DNA of 47,700 bases from Candidatus Pacearchaeota archaeon (GCA_016866975.1 VGKP01000005.1:1-47700); one strand, 5' to 3'; shown: positions 9,881 through 47,508, numbered from the stretch's first letter. Made by a program: numbers and translations. The notes: a model not told the origin generated them from the letters alone.

Positions 9881-9929
9881 TTTTTCTCTTCTCACGATGC
9901 CTTTGAAAATCGGCCATTATTGAATGCGA

Positions 9930-10829
9930 TTACATTGCATTCAATCTTCTTATGCGCTCATCAACTGGGGGATGAGTAGAGAAAAGGCTTGAAAGCTTAT
10001 TCCTGAATGGATCGGACATAAACAACGGTGCGGTCTCTCTTGCTATTCTCTTTGCATCATCTGAAGTCAGATGATCAGTCTTTATTTTTTGCAAAGCAGA
10101 TGCAAGTCCTTTAGGATATCTTGTGAACTTGACTCCTGTTGCATCTGCAGTATACTCTCTTTTTCTGGAGATTGCAAGCGCGACAAGCTGGGCGAATATT
10201 GGCGCAAGAATTGCTACGACAATACCTACTATAAGCAATATTGCTCCAGTTCTGCTATCCCTATTATCTGATGAGAACCAGAAACTTCTAAGTAATATCT
10301 CGGCAGCTATTGAAATCATGCCTATCAGGACAGTAGCTAGTGTCATGAATCTTATGTCAAAATTGGCTATATGTGCCATCTCATGTGCAATCACGCCTTC
10401 TAATTCTTGCTTGTTCAGCTTTTCCAATGCTCCAGTAGTCACACAGATGACTGCATTTCCCGGATTGCGGCCAGATGCAAACGCATTTATCTGATTCGCT
10501 TCCATAACATAGACTCTTGGCACAGGCAATCCTGACGCAAGAGCCATATTCTCCACAGAATGCATGAGTTGCCTATGATGGATTGAAGAGGCTGGCTTTG
10601 CATGAACAGAAGCAAGAGCAATCTTGTCAGAATAATAATATCCAAACCATGTATACAATAAGGAAACAATTATCGAGATTATCATCACAATAAAGAATAA
10701 GCTTGGATTGAGTATTCTTGCAATAAGGAATCCTATCAGTACAAAAGTTACTATTATAGTCCCCATTAATACTACTGATTTAGCCTTGTTTCTGGCAATT
10801 TGATCTTCGAAAGATAGTCTTTCTGTCAT
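9930..10829 (-). CDS. htpX: M48-family zinc metalloprotease HtpX
   Basis: NAFASG, HEMAH (HExxH), SRKREYTADA and STHPP. Start moved from 10907 to ATG 10829 (MTERLSF). Confidence 0.92.
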   Translation of the reverse strand: MTERLSFEDQIARNKAKSVVLMGTIIVTFVLIGFLIARILNPSLFFIVMIISIIVSLLYTWFGYYYSDKIALASVHAKPASSIHHRQLMHSVENMALASGLPVPRVYVMEANQINAFASGRNPGNAVICVTTGALEKLNKQELEGVIAHEMAHIANFDIRFMTLATVLIGMISIAAEILLRSFWFSSDNRDSRTGAILLIVGIVVAILAPIFAQLVALAISRKREYTADATGVKFTRYPKGLASALQKIKTDHLTSDDAKRIARETAPLFMSDPFRNKLSSLFSTHPPVDERIRRLNAM

Positions 10830-20215: not shown

Positions 20216-20262
20216 ATAGCCTTAAAGAAAAAACAGTATAAAAGAGTTGCCTTAAACTATGA

Positions 20263-20443
20263 AGTTACGCCGATGGCAGGAATACCTGCGCGTAAGCAAG
20301 GGTTGCCGCGGAGCAAAGCTCTGCGAGCACTTCGATTCCTGCAGTTACGCCGATGGCAGGAATACCTGCGCGTAAGCAAGGGTTGCCGCGGAGCAAAGCT
20401 CTGCGAGCACTTCGATTCCTGCAGTTACGCCGATGGCAGGAAT
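20263..20443. repeat. 80-bp tandem repeat (two identical copies plus a 21-nt partial) derived from the tRNA-Ser 3' end
   Basis: Units start at 20263, 20343 and 20423. Each begins AGTTACGCCGATGGCAGGAAT (the tRNA 3' end) and the full units end TTCGATTCCTGC (inverted T-arm). Confidence 0.95.
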
Positions 20444-20509
20444 CGAACCTGCATATCCTTGCGGAAGCTTGCTCTCCAAGCAAGTAGGCTACCACTGCCC
20501 AACATCGGC
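20428..20509 (-). tRNA. tRNA-Ser (anticodon GGA), 82 nt, type II variable arm
   Basis: Acceptor GCCGATG/CATCGGC; anticodon arm CTTGC-TTGGAGA-GCAAG; 15-nt variable arm; T-arm GCAGG-TTCGATT-CCTGC; discriminator G. Confidence 0.95.
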
Positions 20510-32712: not shown

Positions 32713-35040
32713 ATGAAAGGATTTATCGTCTATGTAACATATGACCTTCAAGAAGAGAAAACCGTTGTTCAGCTCTTTGGAAGGCTCGAAAACGGCCAGT
32801 CCTTTGCAGCAATCATCCCTCTTCAGCCTTACTTCTTTATTGCAGAGAAAGACCAAAAGCATCTGAGCAAGCTCCTAGAAAAATTTAACATTGAGACAAC
32901 TTCCCTCATGACATTCAAGGGTGAAAAAGTGATTAAAGTATCATCTGAAAACCATATATATTTAAACAAACTTGCAGAAGCAATTCATAAAAGTGAACGC
33001 AATACCTACGAGGCAGATATCAAGCCGCATATGCGTTTCATGATTGACAACGATCTTTTAGGTTCTATATTCATTGAGGGAGAGTATGAGACTGCTGAAA
33101 GAGTCGATCGAGTCTATCGCTATCCTGATATCAAAGCCTCAAACTTTATCCCCAAGCTTAAAGTCATATCTTTAGACACAGAATCAGACAGAAATGGCAA
33201 CTTATTCTGCATAGGGATGTCAGGAGAGAACTACGAAAAAACATTTATGATCACAGAAAAGAACATGAAAAATGTGGTTGCATGTAAGGATGAGGAAGAA
33301 TGCCTTCTGAAATTCAAGGAAGAGTTGATCAAGATTGATCCTGATATTCTCACCGGCTGGAACATGATTGCCTTCGACCTTGAATATCTCAAAAACCTGA
33401 TGAAGAAACATAAAATCCAGTTTGACATTGGAAGAACAAACGAGCAAGTGCGGCTGCGCATCGAGTCGGGTTTCTTCAGATCTTCCAGCGCAGACATTTC
33501 AGGCAGGCAAGTTTTGGATGCTATGAATATGATTAAAGATCCGTTCATCAAAGAAGCGCCATCCATCAAGCGCGCAGAATTCGATTCCTTTGCTCTCGAA
33601 GATGTTGCTCAGGCCCTTTTAGGAAAGGGTAAACTCATCAAAGGAAAGGACAGACATGCAGAAATAGAAAAAATCTTTATTTCTGACCAGCAAAAACTTG
33701 TTGATTATAATATACTTGACTGCAAGCTGGCATATGAGATTTTAACGACAACACAGATGCTCAATCTTGCCATCGAGCGTTCACAACTCACAGGACTTCC
33801 TCTAGATCGTCTCGGAGCATCAGTAGCAGCATTTGATTCTCTTTATCTAAGAGAATCAAGAAAAAGGGGTCTTGTATCTCCTACTACAAGATTCAGCCAA
33901 AAAGAGAAAGGAATTATTGGCGGCTATGTCAAATCCTCTAGTCCAGGAATATATCACAATGTCGTTGTCTTGGACTTCAAATCGCTTTATCCCAGCATAG
34001 TAAGGACATTCAACATAGATCCCGCATCTTTCCTTGAGAAACGTGAGAAAAACTGTATAGAATCTCCAAATAAGGCCTACTTCAAGAATACTGATGGGAT
34101 ACTTCCATCAATAATAGAAAAACTTCACAATGCCAGAGAAAAAGCAAAGAAAGACCAAAGAGAGCTTGCAAATTATGCTATCAAGATAATAATGAATTCT
34201 TTTTTCGGCGTCCTAGCAAACCAGAATTGCAGGTATTACAACTACGATATGGCCAATTCAATAACTCATTTCGGCCAGATGATTATCAAGTTGACTGCGG
34301 AGCAGATTGAGAAGAAAGGATATAAGGTAATCTACAGCGATACAGACTCTGTATTTGTAGAGACAAAATCTGATAAGATAGAAGCTCAATCTCTTGGAAA
34401 AGAGATTCAATCTTTCATAAACACATTCTACAAATCATATATAAAACAAAACTATCGGAGAGAATCTTTCCTAGAATTGCAGTTTGAGAAATTATATCTT
34501 TCTATGATGCTCCCTGCTGTCAGAACAAGCAAAGAAGGCGAAGAAAAAGGGGCAAAAAAAAGATATGCTGGCTTAATTGAGAAGAAAGGGAATGAAGAGC
34601 TTGAACTTACAGGACTTGAGGCAATAAGAGGTGATTGGACTGAAGCCGCACAGGATTTCCAGAAAGAGCTTCTTCTTAAGGTATTCCACAAAGAGTCTCC
34701 AGAAGAATTTATCAAGACAACTATAAAAAAGATAAAAGAAGGGAAGATGAACAGCAAATTAGTCTATAGAAAATCAATCAGAAAGGAATTAGACGAGTAC
34801 ACTAAGACCACCCCTCCCCATGTGAAGGCTGCCAGGCAATTAGACAAACTTGATGGCAATCTCATAGAATATGTAATCACGACTGCCGGTCCAGAACCCA
34901 TTCAAAAATTAAGGCATTCTTTAGATTATGATCATTATATTGATAAGCAGATAGCCCCTATTGCCAATCAAGTCCTCTCACTTTTTGGTAGCTCATTCGA
35001 AGACATCCAAAAAGGCAGTAAGCAGAAGAAATTATTCTAA
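32713..35040 (+). CDS. polB: Family B DNA polymerase (Pol II-like) with intact 3'-5' exonuclease motifs
   Basis: Exo DTE, WNMIAFD, YNILD; polymerase LDFKSLYPS, KIIMNSFFG, YSDTDS, KKRYAG; C-terminal QKKLF. Confidence 0.95.
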   Translation: MKGFIVYVTYDLQEEKTVVQLFGRLENGQSFAAIIPLQPYFFIAEKDQKHLSKLLEKFNIETTSLMTFKGEKVIKVSSENHIYLNKLAEAIHKSERNTYEADIKPHMRFMIDNDLLGSIFIEGEYETAERVDRVYRYPDIKASNFIPKLKVISLDTESDRNGNLFCIGMSGENYEKTFMITEKNMKNVVACKDEEECLLKFKEELIKIDPDILTGWNMIAFDLEYLKNLMKKHKIQFDIGRTNEQVRLRIESGFFRSSSADISGRQVLDAMNMIKDPFIKEAPSIKRAEFDSFALEDVAQALLGKGKLIKGKDRHAEIEKIFISDQQKLVDYNILDCKLAYEILTTTQMLNLAIERSQLTGLPLDRLGASVAAFDSLYLRESRKRGLVSPTTRFSQKEKGIIGGYVKSSSPGIYHNVVVLDFKSLYPSIVRTFNIDPASFLEKREKNCIESPNKAYFKNTDGILPSIIEKLHNAREKAKKDQRELANYAIKIIMNSFFGVLANQNCRYYNYDMANSITHFGQMIIKLTAEQIEKKGYKVIYSDTDSVFVETKSDKIEAQSLGKEIQSFINTFYKSYIKQNYRRESFLELQFEKLYLSMMLPAVRTSKEGEEKGAKKRYAGLIEKKGNEELELTGLEAIRGDWTEAAQDFQKELLLKVFHKESPEEFIKTTIKKIKEGKMNSKLVYRKSIRKELDEYTKTTPPHVKAARQLDKLDGNLIEYVITTAGPEPIQKLRHSLDYDHYIDKQIAPIANQVLSLFGSSFEDIQKGSKQKKLF

Positions 35041-45145: not shown

Positions 45146-45188
45146 GAGGAGGGTTAATAAGGGCAACGCTAATTTAAAGGAAAGTTAA

Positions 45189-45210
45189 TAAGAAAACCTT
45201 GGTTTTCTTA
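45189..45210 (-). terminator. Palindrome TAAGAAAACC-TT-GGTTTTCTTA overlapping the cdc48 stop (REP-like or terminator)
   Basis: Perfect 10+10 inverted repeat, related to the hairpin core of the 36-bp repeat family. Confidence 0.45.
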
Positions 45211-47508
45211 TCCGGCGTATATCGGCCCCATCTCTAATCCTGCTTTCGCACTCTTCAAATAATGCTCTTCCAATTTCTTATAACGCTTAGCAGTTTCAGT
45301 AGATACGCTAGGTCTAATCTTCGCAAGCGCTTCATCAAAGTCTTTGCGCGTTACAATCTTTGAATTAATATCTCTTCTCAATGAATTGAGTGCTGCTTCA
45401 ATGACAAGGCTTTCAATATCAGCGCCGACAAATCCTTCAGTCTGCTTTACAAGCTCATCAATGTTCACTTCCTTTTCAAGTGGTGTATTCTTGAGATGCA
45501 CTTCAAAAATCTTCTTTCTGCTTGATTCATCTGGGACATCTACAAGTATTATACGGTCAAATCTTCCAGGTCTTAATAATGCAGAGTCAAGCATATCTGG
45601 CCTGTTTGTCGCTCCTATTATTGTCACGTCTTTCAAGCCTTCAAGACCGTCAATCTCGGCAAGCAATTGGTTCAGAACACGTTCGGTCACTTTATTCCCC
45701 ATATCAACACCGCGTCGTCCCGCAAGAGCATCAATTTCGTCGAAGAAAATGACGCACGGCGCTACCTGCCGCGCCCGCTCAAAAATCTTCCTGATGCCCT
45801 TCTCGCTTTCTCCCACCCACATGCTCAAAAGGCTTGGCCCCTTGACCTGAATGAAATTAGATTCGCTTTCCTTCGCGACCGCTTTCGCAAGCAATGTCTT
45901 TCCTGTCCCGGGAGGGCCATATAGCAATATCCCTCTTGGAGGCCTGATGCCCAGGCGTTTGAAACTTTCTGGATGGCTTATTGGCCACTCTACTGCCTCT
46001 TTCAACTGCTGCTTGGTCTTTTCCAATCCACCAATATCATTCCAGCTAACGTTCGGCGTTTCAACAAGAACTTCACGCATTGCACTCGGGCGCACAATCT
46101 TAAGCGATCCTTCAAAGTCCTCTCCCCCTATTATTATCTTGTCCAAGACTTCTTTGGGAATCGCCTCATCATCCTCGAGGCGCAAATTAGGAAGCACTTT
46201 GCGCAGCACGTGCATCGCGGACTCTTTTGCGAGGGCAGAGAGGTCAGCACCAACAAATCCATGTGTTTTGCCTGCAAGCGCTTCTAGATTGACATCTTTT
46301 GCCAAAGGCATATTTCTAGTATGAATCTTCAGGATGTTGAGGCGCGCCTTCTTGTCAGGTACAGATATCTCAACTTCCCTGTCAAATCTGCCTGGCCTGC
46401 GTAATGCAGGATCAATTGAGTTTACCCTATTTGTGGCGCCAATGACTACTATCTTTCCTCGAGTCTTAAGGCCATCCATCATTGTAAGAAGCTGTGATAC
46501 CACTCTTCTCTCGACTTCTCCCTGCACATCTTCTCTCTTAGGGGCAATTGCATCAACTTCATCAATAAATATTATGGAAGGAGCATGCTTTTCAGCCTCA
46601 TCAAATATATCTCTTATCTTCTTCTCACTCTCCCCATAGAACTTGCTCATTATCTCTGGCCCATTTAGAAGAATAAAATGTGCCTCACTCTCATTTGCCA
46701 CTGCTTTTGCTAAAAGGGTTTTGCCTGTACCTGGAGGGCCATGTAGCAATACTCCTTTAGGCGGCTCTATTCCCAATCTATCAAATATCTCAGGATGCTT
46801 GAGAGGCAACTCCACCATCTCTCTTATTTTCTTCACCTCATCTATCAATCCCCCGATATCTTCATAAGTTACATCTGGAACTGTTTCCTCGCTTACATCT
46901 ACTGCTTTAGAGTGTACAGTCACTTCAGTCTCTTCATTGATTATGCATGATTGATTTGGAGAAGTAGATACGACGGTGAACCTTATCTGCTGGAATCCTA
47001 GTGGAAATCCAAAATTGCTTCCAAATAGGTCATGCAAGTCTCCAAATATATCTGGGAATCCCTCACTCATGACATCTTTTCTCCTCTGTACTCCTCCAAG
47101 AGATATAAGGTCTCCTTTCATTACAGCTCTTCCAAGAAGCCCTTGTTTGAACATCTCAGGGTCTCCTTGTACCATTATCCCTTGCTGCGCAGGCGCTATA
47201 GCGACCTTTGTGGCAGGTTTTGCGCCCGCTTTCTTTACACTTACCTGCTCTCCTACCGAGGTTCTTGCATTCCTTCTTATAAGTCCGTCAACTCTTATTA
47301 TCCCTTCTCCGACATCGGCAGGATATGCCCTGTCAACTATTGCAACAGTCTCCTTTTCTCCTTTAATTAATATTATATCTCCTCTATTCAGCCCGAGAGC
47401 GCGCATAAGGTTGGGATCTATTCTTGCAATTCCCTTATATGCATCATCCTGTAGTGCTTCGACTACTCTTAACTTGATTTCATCATTTCCAGTTTGTTTA
47501 GCACTCAT
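45208..47508 (-). CDS. cdc48: Cdc48/VCP-family AAA+ ATPase
   Basis: N-domain plus two AAA modules (GPPGTGKT twice, [28 protein letters not shown]). Confidence 0.98.

What the first reader, a model, noticed from the sequence alone, without database searches (positions are those of the whole stretch)
20263..20447. tRNA-Ser 3' end amplified as an 80-bp tandem repeat whose trailer is complementary to the T-arm
Seen: read on the minus strand, the tRNA ends ...TTCGATTCCTGC-CATCGGCG-TAACT and is followed at once by GCAGGAATCGAA, a perfect 12-nt reverse complement of the T-loop/T-stem (20411-20422 vs 20436-20447). A GC-rich hairpin (GCAGAGC-TTT-GCTCCGC) follows, then a copy of the tRNA 3' end with 3 nt deleted from the T-loop. 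This unit occurs twice, identically. Known: integrases duplicate tRNA 3' ends, and tRNA-linked repeats exist in bacteria. Inference: either (a) a tRNA-targeting mini-element that regenerates its att site and stacks in tandem, or (b) a trailer that refolds the pre-tRNA, sequesters the T-arm and yields small tRNA-like RNAs.
Basis: partly seen in the sequence, partly recalled or inferred. Interest (0 to 1): 0.72.

Follow-up and report, generated by a model that had tools for sequence, protein, structure and literature searches.

The report
Mini hairpin element stacked behind tRNA-Ser
The 80-base repeat behind this serine tRNA gene is two stacked copies of a tiny gene-less hairpin element that sits behind many different tRNA genes in a few small-genome (DPANN) archaea, each copy ending in a fresh copy of the tRNA's tail; it looks like a new kind of miniature mobile DNA, and how it moves is unknown.

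Summary
Window 20263-20443 is an exact 80-bp tandem repeat (2.3 copies) directly 3' of tRNA-Ser(GGA), with a perfect 12-nt inverted copy of the T-loop/T-stem. It is not an assembly error: repeat k-mers have about twice the flank depth in three lake metagenomes, and a fourth holds a one-unit allele.

It is not a local oddity. The same conserved hairpin follows at least five tRNAs in this 0.8-Mb archaeal genome and at least 12 tRNA species in other DPANN genomes and metagenomes. The layout is always: tRNA, short linker, inverted arm matching the local T-arm, two-hairpin module in either orientation, then a direct copy of the local tRNA 3' end.

Distribution is patchy: 4 of 16 genus members and 1 of 400 sampled phylum genomes. 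Orthologous sites are empty or differ. The hairpin shows compensatory changes.

Best reading: a non-autonomous mini integrative element that regenerates the tRNA end, so copies stack. The enzyme is unidentified.

The "3-nt T-loop deletion" is really the direct repeat starting at A58, as in most of the family's (+)-orientation copies.

This scan already described the family on two other contigs of this genome. The closest known analogue is the unexplained E. coli tRNA-linked repeats.

The parts
20428..20509 (-). tRNA-Ser(GGA), intact, the only Ser-GGA gene found in the genome
   Evidence: ARAGORN; Rfam tRNA 57.8 bits
20436..20447 (-). Segment S: T-loop plus the 3' strand of the T-stem of the tRNA (TTCGATTCCTGC), the partner of the inverted arm
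20423..20443 (-). Direct repeat copy 0: tRNA from A58 to the 3' end plus 5 nt of flank (ATTCCTGCCATCGGCGTAACT)
20343..20422 (-). Unit 1 (80 nt): inverted arm, core hairpin, short tail, direct repeat
20411..20422 (-). Inverted arm X of unit 1 (GCAGGAATCGAA), a perfect complement of S
20384..20410 (-). Conserved core hairpin of unit 1 (27 nt, GTGCTCGCAGAGC TTT GCTCCGCGGCA)
   Evidence: covariation
20364..20383 (-). Reduced remainder of the second hairpin and family tail (ends ...GCGCAGGT). Relatives carry an 8-10 bp hairpin here
20343..20363 (-). Direct repeat copy 1
20263..20342 (-). Unit 2, identical to unit 1 (arm 20331-20342, core 20304-20330, direct repeat copy 2 at 20263-20283)
20221..20246 (-). 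First T-rich runs after the array. Probable transcription stop, so the array would be part of the tRNA trailer (inference only)
   Evidence: Sequence; no RNA data

Best explanation
The repeat is two stacked copies of a much-reduced member of a family of gene-less, hairpin-built mini-elements that live directly behind tRNA genes in some DPANN archaea.

Shown:
- Each unit has an arm that is the reverse complement of the local tRNA's T-loop and T-stem 3' strand.
- This is followed by a structurally conserved two-hairpin module, of which the window's copy keeps only the first hairpin.
- The unit ends in a direct copy of the local tRNA from T-loop position A58 to a few bases past its 3' end.
- The family has multiplied onto many different tRNAs and turns over quickly between relatives.

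Inferred:
- The element enters by recombination at the tRNA 3' end in a way that rebuilds the tRNA and leaves a second copy of its tail. The site survives and further copies can stack.
- The step from one to two identical units could equally be unequal exchange or slippage between the 21-nt repeats.
- Because arm and tail pair with each other, a single-stranded unit folds into a stem that recreates the T-arm duplex of the tRNA gene. I therefore favour a recombinase supplied in trans that acts on folded DNA, as integron attC sites and CTX-type phages do.
- The genome's Xer-type tyrosine recombinases are the only candidates seen. This last step is a guess.
For: - Same core hairpin 3' of tRNA-Arg (C9, 3 tandem units), tRNA-Arg-GCG (C8, one unit of about 200 nt), tRNA-Gly-CCC (C3) and tRNA-Gly-GCC (C1) in the same genome.
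- 8 of 43 tRNAs carry 3' units that end in a copy of their own tail.
- C1 has an A-B-A stack of two unrelated fillers, each bounded by the same 12-nt tRNA end.
- Of 38 distinct low-GC copies from genomes and metagenomes, 29 lie within 450 nt 3' of a tRNA, most within 12-23 nt. They cover Ser, Arg, Gln, Ala, Val, Phe, Gly, Asp and Leu tRNAs. Arm and repeat are always matched to the local tRNA.
- Patchy distribution: 4 of 16 genus members, 0 of 24 other relatives, 1 of 400 evenly sampled phylum genomes, reversed-pattern controls 0.
- At the orthologous locus the closest relative has one long unit of about 195 nt with the same arm and the same A58 junction. Four other genus members have an empty site.
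- A one-unit allele with identical flanks occurs in another lake sample.
- Core hairpin: 4 pairs change on both sides, none on one side only, 92% of cells paired, 0 of 500 shuffles reach the score.
- The second hairpin folds in 20 of 20 copies with different sequences.
- An inverted arm was found behind unit-bearing tRNAs only (5 of the 8; plus one 9-nt match 488 nt away behind tRNA-Met). It was not found behind tRNAs without units, so it comes with the element.
- The unit folds into a closed three-way junction (-33 kcal/mol, z -2.6).
Against: - No mobilising enzyme is linked to the element. Both Xer-like paralogues are common in the genus whether or not the core is present. No integrase gene lies beside any copy.
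- No free or circular form, no copy carrying a gene, and no viral copy was found.
- The spacer between the tRNA segment and the inverted arm varies from 6 to 22 nt. That fits a hairpin loop but not a classical double-stranded core site.
- Nearly identical modules sit at many different tRNAs with arms fully matched to each. A simple att-exchange model does not explain how both arms are re-made at each jump.
- The two units here are identical, so this array says nothing about repeated integration as against slippage.
Confidence: 0.6

Rival explanations
1. The units are a functional part of the tRNA transcript. The trailer pairs with the T-arm, delaying or controlling tRNA maturation, or is cut out as a small structured RNA of about 80 nt. 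The structure is conserved for that reason.
For: There is no strong terminator between the tRNA and the array; the first T-runs come after it. The predicted fold of the read-through transcript pairs the T-loop and T-stem 3' strand with the arm (12 bp; -108 kcal/mol, z -3.8). Hairpins show compensatory changes. In E. coli, some tRNA-linked repeats downstream of rRNA operons are processed sRNAs (PMC8144298).
Against: The module occurs in both orientations relative to the tRNA: (+) behind Ser, Arg, Gln, Ala, Val and Phe; (-) behind Gly, Asp and Leu. It also occurs antisense inside a 23S rRNA insertion. It is missing from most close relatives and from orthologous tRNAs. Copy number varies between samples. 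No RNA run holds the region, so nothing is known about expression.
Confidence: 0.15
2. The units are decayed scars of ordinary kilobase-sized integrated elements (viruses or plasmids with their own integrase). The tRNA tail copy is attR, the rest is the last remnant of the element's end, later amplified by slippage.
For: Direct repeats that start in the T-loop and run past the tRNA end are the known signature of T-loop-targeting tyrosine integrases (for example Ms6, PMC1762012). Related genomes show classical 38-nt tRNA-Ser 3' half copies behind the same tRNA (L020, L022). Larger integrase-like frames exist in three genus members.
Against: No copy, of about 38, contains or adjoins an integrase or any gene between arm and repeat. 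Sizes cluster at 60-200 nt. The module keeps its hairpins through compensatory change, which scars would not. The same module is fitted to at least 12 different tRNAs. There were no hits in 2.9 million viral contigs.
Confidence: 0.15
3. The units are non-autonomous derivatives of an IS200/IS605-type element (PATE or REP-like). They would be moved as single strands by the genome's Y1 (HUH) transposase, with the inverted arm acting as a long guide that pairs with the target.
For: The genome holds at least three Y1 transposase copies. The layout of target, linker, complementary segment and imperfect hairpin resembles the left end of IS608 (my own knowledge).
Against: Hairpins flanking the resident transposase genes are unlike the core. 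Y1 genes are not found in G008, G005 and G016, which carry the core, and are present in five genus members that lack it. IS200/IS605 elements make no direct repeat. The arm changes with every target.
Confidence: 0.05
4. Assembly artefact: a single unit was wrongly duplicated by the assembler.
For: The copies are exact and the data are short-read metagenomes.
Against: Repeat k-mer depth is about twice the flank depth in three samples, and about three times for the three-unit array on C9. The same architecture recurs in many independent assemblies.
Confidence: 0.02

Closest known systems
E. coli tRNA-linked repeats (TLRs; the tyrT/tyrV 178-bp repeats with rttR, and rrA/rrB/rrF behind 5S rRNA)
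   Same: One to five units lie directly behind a tRNA or rRNA gene, each ending in 18-19 bp identical to that gene's 3' end, with function and origin mostly unknown (PMC8144298). Tested here on K-12: the tyrV units end in a 19-nt copy that also starts at A58 of the T-loop. Each unit holds a 10-nt inverted complement of the T-stem 3' strand and acceptor.
   Different: Bacterial, 100-180 bp, with no sequence or Rfam similarity to the archaeal module. The inverted arm lies 59 nt into the unit, not at its start. It was not found behind 5S rRNA (rrnB), so it is not general. TLRs are conserved in enterobacteria, whereas the archaeal family is patchy.
Integron attC sites and cassette arrays
   Same: Arrays of units are bounded by imperfect palindromes that are thought to act as folded single strands. 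Bulged and mismatched bases are conserved. Sequence varies but structure is kept. The site is regenerated at each insertion.
   Different: The unit has no GTTRRRY/RYYYAAC boxes. The recombinases score below the integron-integrase cut-offs (201.8 against 265 bits). There are no cassette ORFs and no attI. The arms copy a tRNA.
Elements that exploit Xer recombinases (CTX-type phages, from my own knowledge)
   Same: The attachment site is a folded single strand that mimics a chromosomal site. A host recombinase does the work. The site is regenerated and elements stack in tandem.
   Different: The target there is dif, not a tRNA gene. Those elements are phage genomes with genes. No experiment links Xer-like enzymes to the archaeal units.
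T-loop-targeting tyrosine integrases and their att scars (Ms6, PMC1762012; archaeal tyrosine recombinases, PMC8371274)
   Same: The direct repeat begins in the T-loop and runs beyond the tRNA 3' end, so the tRNA is rebuilt.
   Different: No integrase lies next to any copy. The element is 60-200 nt instead of kilobases. There is an extra inverted arm.
MITEs, REP/REPIN and IS200/IS605-derived palindromic elements
   Same: Tiny, non-coding, hairpin-forming and multi-copy, with patchy distribution and dependence on an enzyme in trans.
   Different: The terminal arms are not constant but copy each target. The duplicated target is 12-27 bp and differs by subfamily. Location is almost exclusively behind tRNAs.

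Membership tests
DPANN tRNA-trailing hairpin element family (defined in this scan, not in the literature) | Conserved 27-nt imperfect core hairpin (GTGCTCRCAGARC NNN GYTCCGYGGCA) | tested here: met
   Exact in both units at 20384-20410 and 20304-20330
DPANN tRNA-trailing hairpin element family (defined in this scan, not in the literature) | Sits within about 25 nt of a tRNA 3' end, begins with an inverted copy of the T-arm 3' part and ends with a direct copy of the tRNA tail | tested here: met
   12-nt arm, 21-nt repeat from A58
DPANN tRNA-trailing hairpin element family (defined in this scan, not in the literature) | Second 8-10 bp hairpin directly after the core | tested here: not met
   Replaced by a 20-nt remnant at 20364-20383. 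Relatives have the hairpin in 20 of 20 copies. The window's unit is a reduced derivative
E. coli tRNA-linked repeats | Unit directly downstream of a tRNA or rRNA gene, with its 3' end identical to that gene's 3' end | tested here: met
   16 nt of tRNA plus 5 nt of flank are repeated. For the definition see PMC8144298
E. coli tRNA-linked repeats | Sequence homology to the enterobacterial TLR/rtT family | tested here: not met
   No Rfam match other than tRNA, even at E up to 10
E. coli tRNA-linked repeats | Co-transcribed with the upstream gene and processed | not testable with these tools
   No RNA run holds the region
Integron cassette / attC | R''/R' boxes (RYYYAAC ... GTTRRRY) in an imperfect palindrome | tested here: not met
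   Reading both strands of the unit: the only GTT-starting heptamers are GTTACGC and GTTGCCG, and neither fits
Integron cassette / attC | Integron integrase with the IntI-specific domain | tested here: not met
   Both recombinases pass the XerA model and fail TIGR02249 and NF011946
IS200/IS605-derived palindromic elements / REP-RAYT | Hairpins like those flanking a resident Y1 transposase gene; co-occurrence with that gene | tested here: not met
   Different hairpins; no co-occurrence in the genus
Classical tRNA-integrating element (att scar) | Direct repeat of the tRNA 3' part starting in the T- or anticodon loop | tested here: met
   Repeat starts at A58
Classical tRNA-integrating element (att scar) | Integrase gene and cargo between the repeats | tested here: not met
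   59 nt between the repeats and no ORF. None in about 38 copies
MITE | Constant terminal inverted repeats and a fixed-length target duplication | tested here: not met
   Arms change with each tRNA. Duplications are 12-27 nt and depend on subfamily
CRISPR array | Repeats separated by unique spacers; Cas1 | tested here: not met
   The 'spacers' are identical. No Cas1 in the genome

The most novel reading that the evidence does not exclude
These units and the 45-year-old E. coli tRNA-linked repeats would be two faces of one undescribed class. They would be gene-less elements whose single-stranded form folds so that arm and tail rebuild the T-arm duplex of a tRNA gene. A host Xer-type or other structure-specific recombinase would then insert them at the T-loop, restore the tRNA and leave a reusable site. 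Both arms would be re-copied from each new target.
Probability: 0.2. Interest if true: 0.85.

Novelty: new variant of a known kind. Interest (0 to 1): 0.62.

Why it matters
- tRNA genes are the classic landing sites for mobile DNA, but the known users are kilobase-sized elements with their own integrase. An element of 60-200 nt that targets many different tRNAs would point to an insertion mechanism not yet described in archaea. It carries arms tailored to each target and rebuilds the tRNA.
- It would give a testable model for the unexplained tRNA-linked repeats of E. coli.
- It matters for annotation of DPANN genomes. Partial tRNA copies and hairpin arrays behind tRNAs, and the same module inside an rRNA insertion, can be mistaken for tRNA fragments or regulatory RNAs.
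- If the trailer really competes with the T-arm in the transcript, these elements could also affect tRNA supply in organisms with single-copy tRNA genes.

Tried and rejected
- RNA evidence: no RNA holder is listed for the region, so expression could not be addressed.
- Rfam: nothing but the tRNA, at gathering threshold and at E up to 10.
- By eye I looked for box C/D (RUGAUGA/CUGA), a K-turn and a bulge-helix-bulge splice motif at the arm-tail helix. None is present, so a guide RNA or a T-loop intron reading was dropped.
- Split-tRNA idea (the units as shared 3' pieces for other Ser isoacceptors): dropped, because Ser-TGA, Ser-CGA and Ser-GCT genes are complete elsewhere.
- Enzyme census in the 89%-complete genome: no TnpB, Cas1 or reverse transcriptase found.
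- The Y1 transposase and Xer paralogues do not track the element within the genus.
- Viral contigs: 0 hits.
- Pattern hits in high-GC bacteria, including tandem ones in L110 and L122, are unrelated sequences.
- Strand of action could not be inferred. Each strand of the core has one wobble and one mismatch.
- An inverted arm as a general TLR feature: found at tyrV but not behind rrnB 5S. proM and glyY have no repeats at all.
- The 7-nt match of the unit's filler to the tRNA anticodon stem (CTTGCTT) is within chance.

Full report
**What is there**

- On the minus strand the window holds an intact tRNA-Ser(GGA) at 20428-20509.
- Its last 21 positions, counted from A58 of the T-loop through the discriminator plus five flank bases (ATTCCTGCCATCGGCGTAACT), recur twice more at 80-nt spacing. 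This gives the exact 2.3-copy repeat at 20263-20443.
- Each 80-nt unit has four parts:
  - a 12-nt arm (GCAGGAATCGAA) that is the perfect reverse complement of the T-loop and the T-stem 3' strand;
  - a 27-nt GC-rich imperfect hairpin;
  - a 20-nt remnant ending in GCGCAGGT;
  - the 21-nt direct repeat.
- The first T-rich runs come only after the array, so the array would be part of the tRNA's trailer. That is inference.

**Is it real?**

- Contigs built independently from public lake-water runs were laid on the region.
- In three samples the graph breaks at the repeat, and the repeat unitig has about twice the depth of the flanks: 39.3 against 19.8/21, 6.9 against 3.8-4.8, and 7.6 against 4.2.
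- The related three-unit array on contig C9 shows about three times the flank depth (64.4).
- In a fourth sample a 956-nt contig with zero mismatches runs straight through with exactly one unit fewer.
- At 4.4-fold depth a missed junction k-mer could mimic the one-unit contig, so I call it suggestive of copy-number polymorphism, not proof.
- An assembly artefact is excluded.

**It is one locus of a family**

- The window comes from an 806-kb, 31-contig, roughly 89%-complete genome with many long tRNA introns. Titles of related records name Nanoarchaeota, Pacearchaeota and Woesearchaeota, that is DPANN archaea.
- The same core hairpin follows other tRNAs in this genome:
  - an intron-bearing tRNA on C9, with three 86-nt units (Arg-TCT by my reading; ARAGORN calls it Gly-TCC);
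  - tRNA-Arg(GCG) on C8, with one unit of about 200 nt;
  - tRNA-Gly(CCC) on C3, in inverted orientation;
  - tRNA-Gly(GCC) on C1, in inverted orientation.
- In all, 8 of 43 tRNAs carry 3' units that end in a copy of their own tail. These include other filler families on C25, C4 and C12.
- On C1 two unrelated fillers alternate as A-B-A. Each is bounded by the same 12-nt tRNA end, which is hard to get by slippage alone.
- One further core copy lies antisense inside an insertion in the 23S rRNA gene.

**Wider distribution**

- The core pattern occurs in 4 of 16 other genomes of the genus and in 0 of 24 further relatives.
- It occurs in 1 of 400 evenly sampled genomes of the phylum, with zero hits for the reversed control pattern.
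- Across 185,579 species it hits about 14 low-GC DPANN genomes plus chance hits in high-GC bacteria.
- Among metagenome contigs there are 21 low-GC hits.
- Viral contigs give none.
- Of 38 distinct low-GC copies, 29 lie within 450 nt downstream of a tRNA 3' end, most within 12-23 nt. Only about 2.5% of such a genome lies that close behind a tRNA. Several of the rest sit at contig ends.

**Constant anatomy**

- The order is always: tRNA, linker of 2-12 nt, inverted arm, module, direct repeat.
- Behind Ser, Arg, Gln, Ala, Val and Phe tRNAs the module is co-oriented with the tRNA.
  - The arm (8-12 nt) pairs with tRNA positions -21 to -10.
  - The direct repeat starts at A58 (position -16/-17) or, in a subgroup, at T54.
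- Behind Gly, Asp and Leu tRNAs the module is inverted and the repeat starts at -12/-13.
- The arms nevertheless keep the same arrangement relative to the tRNA. So the arms follow the target and the module is a passenger in either orientation.
- The different repeat starts go with the filler subfamily, not with the tRNA. Nearly identical tRNA-Arg(CCT) genes carry a repeat from -13 with one filler (C25) and from -22 with the core-type filler (L109).
- An inverted arm was found behind unit-bearing tRNAs only (5 of the 8, plus one 9-nt match 488 nt away behind tRNA-Met), not behind tRNAs without units.
The GCAGGT before the repeat is the family's tail CTCAGGT, which also occurs behind tRNAs with other T-stems. 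There is no 3-nt deletion.

**Structure is selected**

- In an alignment of 20 distinct copies, the core hairpin has 11 pairs.
- Four pairs change on both sides: 2-27 UA/CG 15:5, 7-23 GC/AU 11:9, 12-18 GC/AU 11:7, and 3-26.
- No cell changes on one side only. 92% of cells are paired, and no shuffle of 500 reaches the score.
- A bulged C4, a U5.G25 pair (19 of 20) and an A9.C21 mismatch (16 of 20) are conserved.
- The second hairpin folds as 8-10 bp in 20 of 20 copies with quite different sequences.
- The window's unit has lost this second hairpin.
- Longer relatives of about 150-200 nt have four to six hairpins (C8, L007, L017, L109).
- The 80-nt unit folds into a closed three-way junction in which the arm pairs with the start of the repeat (-33 kcal/mol, z -2.6 on the plus strand).
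- Conserved bulges and mismatches in a hairpin are typical of protein-recognised folded DNA. They do not tell DNA from RNA, and each strand has one wobble and one mismatch.

**Turnover**

- At the orthologous locus of the closest relative (tRNA 99% identical, same downstream gene) there is one unit of about 195 nt. It has the same arm and the same GT|ATTCC junction, followed by a stump of another arm.
- Four other genus members have empty sites, with a T-run directly after the tRNA.
- Two show stacked 38-nt tRNA-Ser 3' halves of the classical integrase kind.

**Who moves it?**

- Not shown.
- The genome has two Xer-type tyrosine recombinases that are 39% identical. Both pass the archaeal XerA model and fail the integron-integrase models.
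- It also has at least three IS200/IS605 Y1 transposase copies.
- No TnpB, Cas1 or reverse transcriptase was found.
- The Y1 enzyme is a poor candidate. Its own flanking hairpins differ, and its presence in the genus does not track the element.
- The Xer paralogues are common in the genus with or without the element. They are possible host factors but are not implicated by co-occurrence.

**Mechanism proposed**

Shown:
- The element family duplicates onto many tRNAs.
- Each copy carries a target-matched inverted arm and a target-matched direct repeat that leaves the tRNA intact.
- Copies stack.
- The structure is conserved.

Inferred:
- Insertion is by recombination in or next to the T-loop. 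Repeats starting in the T-loop are the known signature of T-loop-targeting integrases, such as Ms6 (PMC1762012).
- The variable 6-22-nt spacing between the tRNA segment and the arm fits a hairpin loop rather than a double-stranded core site.
- I therefore favour a folded single-stranded intermediate whose stem mimics the T-arm duplex, in the manner of integron attC sites (archaeal examples in PMC9668308) or CTX-type phages.
- The growth from one to two identical units here needs nothing more than unequal exchange between the 21-nt repeats.

Unexplained:
- How are both arms re-made at each jump to a new tRNA?
- In two copies (L118 Ala-CGC, L074 Gln-CTG) the arm differs by one base from the local T-stem while both repeat copies match it.
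- That could mean the arm is inherited and the repeat is made locally, or it could be simple mutation.

**The RNA alternative**

- The read-through transcript is predicted to pair the T-loop and T-stem 3' strand with the arm (12 bp) instead of forming the T-arm.
- It is thermodynamic potential only.
- Both orientations of the module, its patchiness and the lack of RNA data make a conserved RNA role the less likely reading. A side-effect on tRNA maturation remains possible.

**Comparison with the known**

- The nearest described thing is the E. coli tRNA-linked repeats: 22 units at ten loci, each ending in 18-19 bp of the upstream tRNA or rRNA 3' end, mostly of unknown function (PMC8144298).
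- I tested K-12 directly.
  - The tyrV units end in a 19-nt copy that also starts at A58, and each holds a 10-nt inverted complement of the T-stem 3' strand and acceptor.
  - The unit behind rrnB 5S has the direct copy but no inverted one.
- So the likeness is real but partial, and there is no sequence relationship.
- I found no paper describing the archaeal family.

**Earlier notes of this scan**

- Notes on two other contigs of the same genome (C3 and C1) reached the same family-level reading.
- I re-derived that reading independently.
- I add the read-depth and allele evidence, the orthologous-locus comparison, the survey of about 38 copies with the A58 junction, the covariation counts, the enzyme census and the direct TLR test.

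**Verdict**

- The feature is real and well supported as a reduced, duplicated member of a small mobile hairpin-element family tied to tRNA 3' ends.
- The mechanism is open.

Noticed in passing
G000 contig C6:5778-5804 (locus L015:1501-1527, minus strand): A copy of the core plus second hairpin lies antisense inside a roughly 1-kb excess of sequence within the 23S rRNA gene. The Rfam match covers model positions 1765-2987 over 2236 nt. The rRNA insertion or intron therefore carries the same module.
   Followed up: partly
G000 contig C1:78500-79000 (locus L125): Behind tRNA-Gly(GCC) two unrelated fillers alternate as A-B-A, each bounded by CCGGCGGGCGCA. Filler A (70 nt) has no inverted arm.
   Followed up: partly
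G000 contigs C25:3000-3500 (L126), C4:1-200 (L127), C12:25900-26300: Other small filler families sit behind tRNA-Arg(CCT), tRNA-Thr(CGT) and tRNA-Pro(TGG). Each ends in a copy of the tRNA tail. The first two have an inverted arm and GNRA-loop hairpins. The C25 filler contains a stray GGGAATCGAAG, which looks like an old arm from another tRNA.
   Followed up: no
G000 C7:16846-17682 and C22:9078-9881: An 0.8-Mb genome has two XerA-type tyrosine recombinases that are 39% identical. Both paralogues recur across the genus, which is unusual for archaea that normally have one XerA.
   Followed up: partly
G000 C10:194-541, C6:1-153, C12:26760-26912: IS200/IS605 Y1 transposase genes are present, two of them cut by contig ends. 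A multi-copy IS therefore breaks the assembly. No TnpB partner was found.
   Followed up: partly
L020 (G009) and L022 (G006), 3' of tRNA-Ser(GGA): There are stacked 38-nt tRNA 3' halves (variable arm to 3' end). One comes from a different serine tRNA (Ser-GCT type). These look like classical integrase scars at the site that is occupied by the mini-element in the window.
   Followed up: no
L037:1080-1185 (Woesearchaeota MAG): A core-like hairpin sits on the 5' side of tRNA-Ser(GCT), with a duplication of the tRNA's first 12 nt (GCCGTCGTGGCA). This is a possible 5'-end variant of the same theme.
   Followed up: no
L053:6544-6649 (Halorutilus salinus) and L035:6789-6894: A core-like hairpin is paired with an inverted second copy (GTGCTC...GAGCAC closing stem). 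In Halorutilus it lies in the 16S-tRNA-Ala spacer. This may be a REPIN-like relative or a chance match.
   Followed up: no
E. coli K-12 NC_000913.3 1286200-1287800 (L068): Each 178-bp tyrV repeat unit contains GGGGAAGGAT, the inverted complement of tRNA-Tyr positions 59-68. Its terminal tRNA copy starts at A58 after ...GAGT. Chance expectation for the inverted match is about 0.003.
   Followed up: partly
G000 contig C9:7843-7988: ARAGORN calls this intron-bearing tRNA Gly(TCC). With a canonical 37/38 intron the anticodon reads TCT (Arg), and its T-arm matches tRNA-Arg(CCT).
   Followed up: no
window 45188-45211, 33833-33859, 9919-9945: There are further perfect or near-perfect short hairpins (11-12 nt arms, 2-5 nt loops) elsewhere in the window. 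Their relation to the genome's other hairpin repeats was not examined.
   Followed up: no
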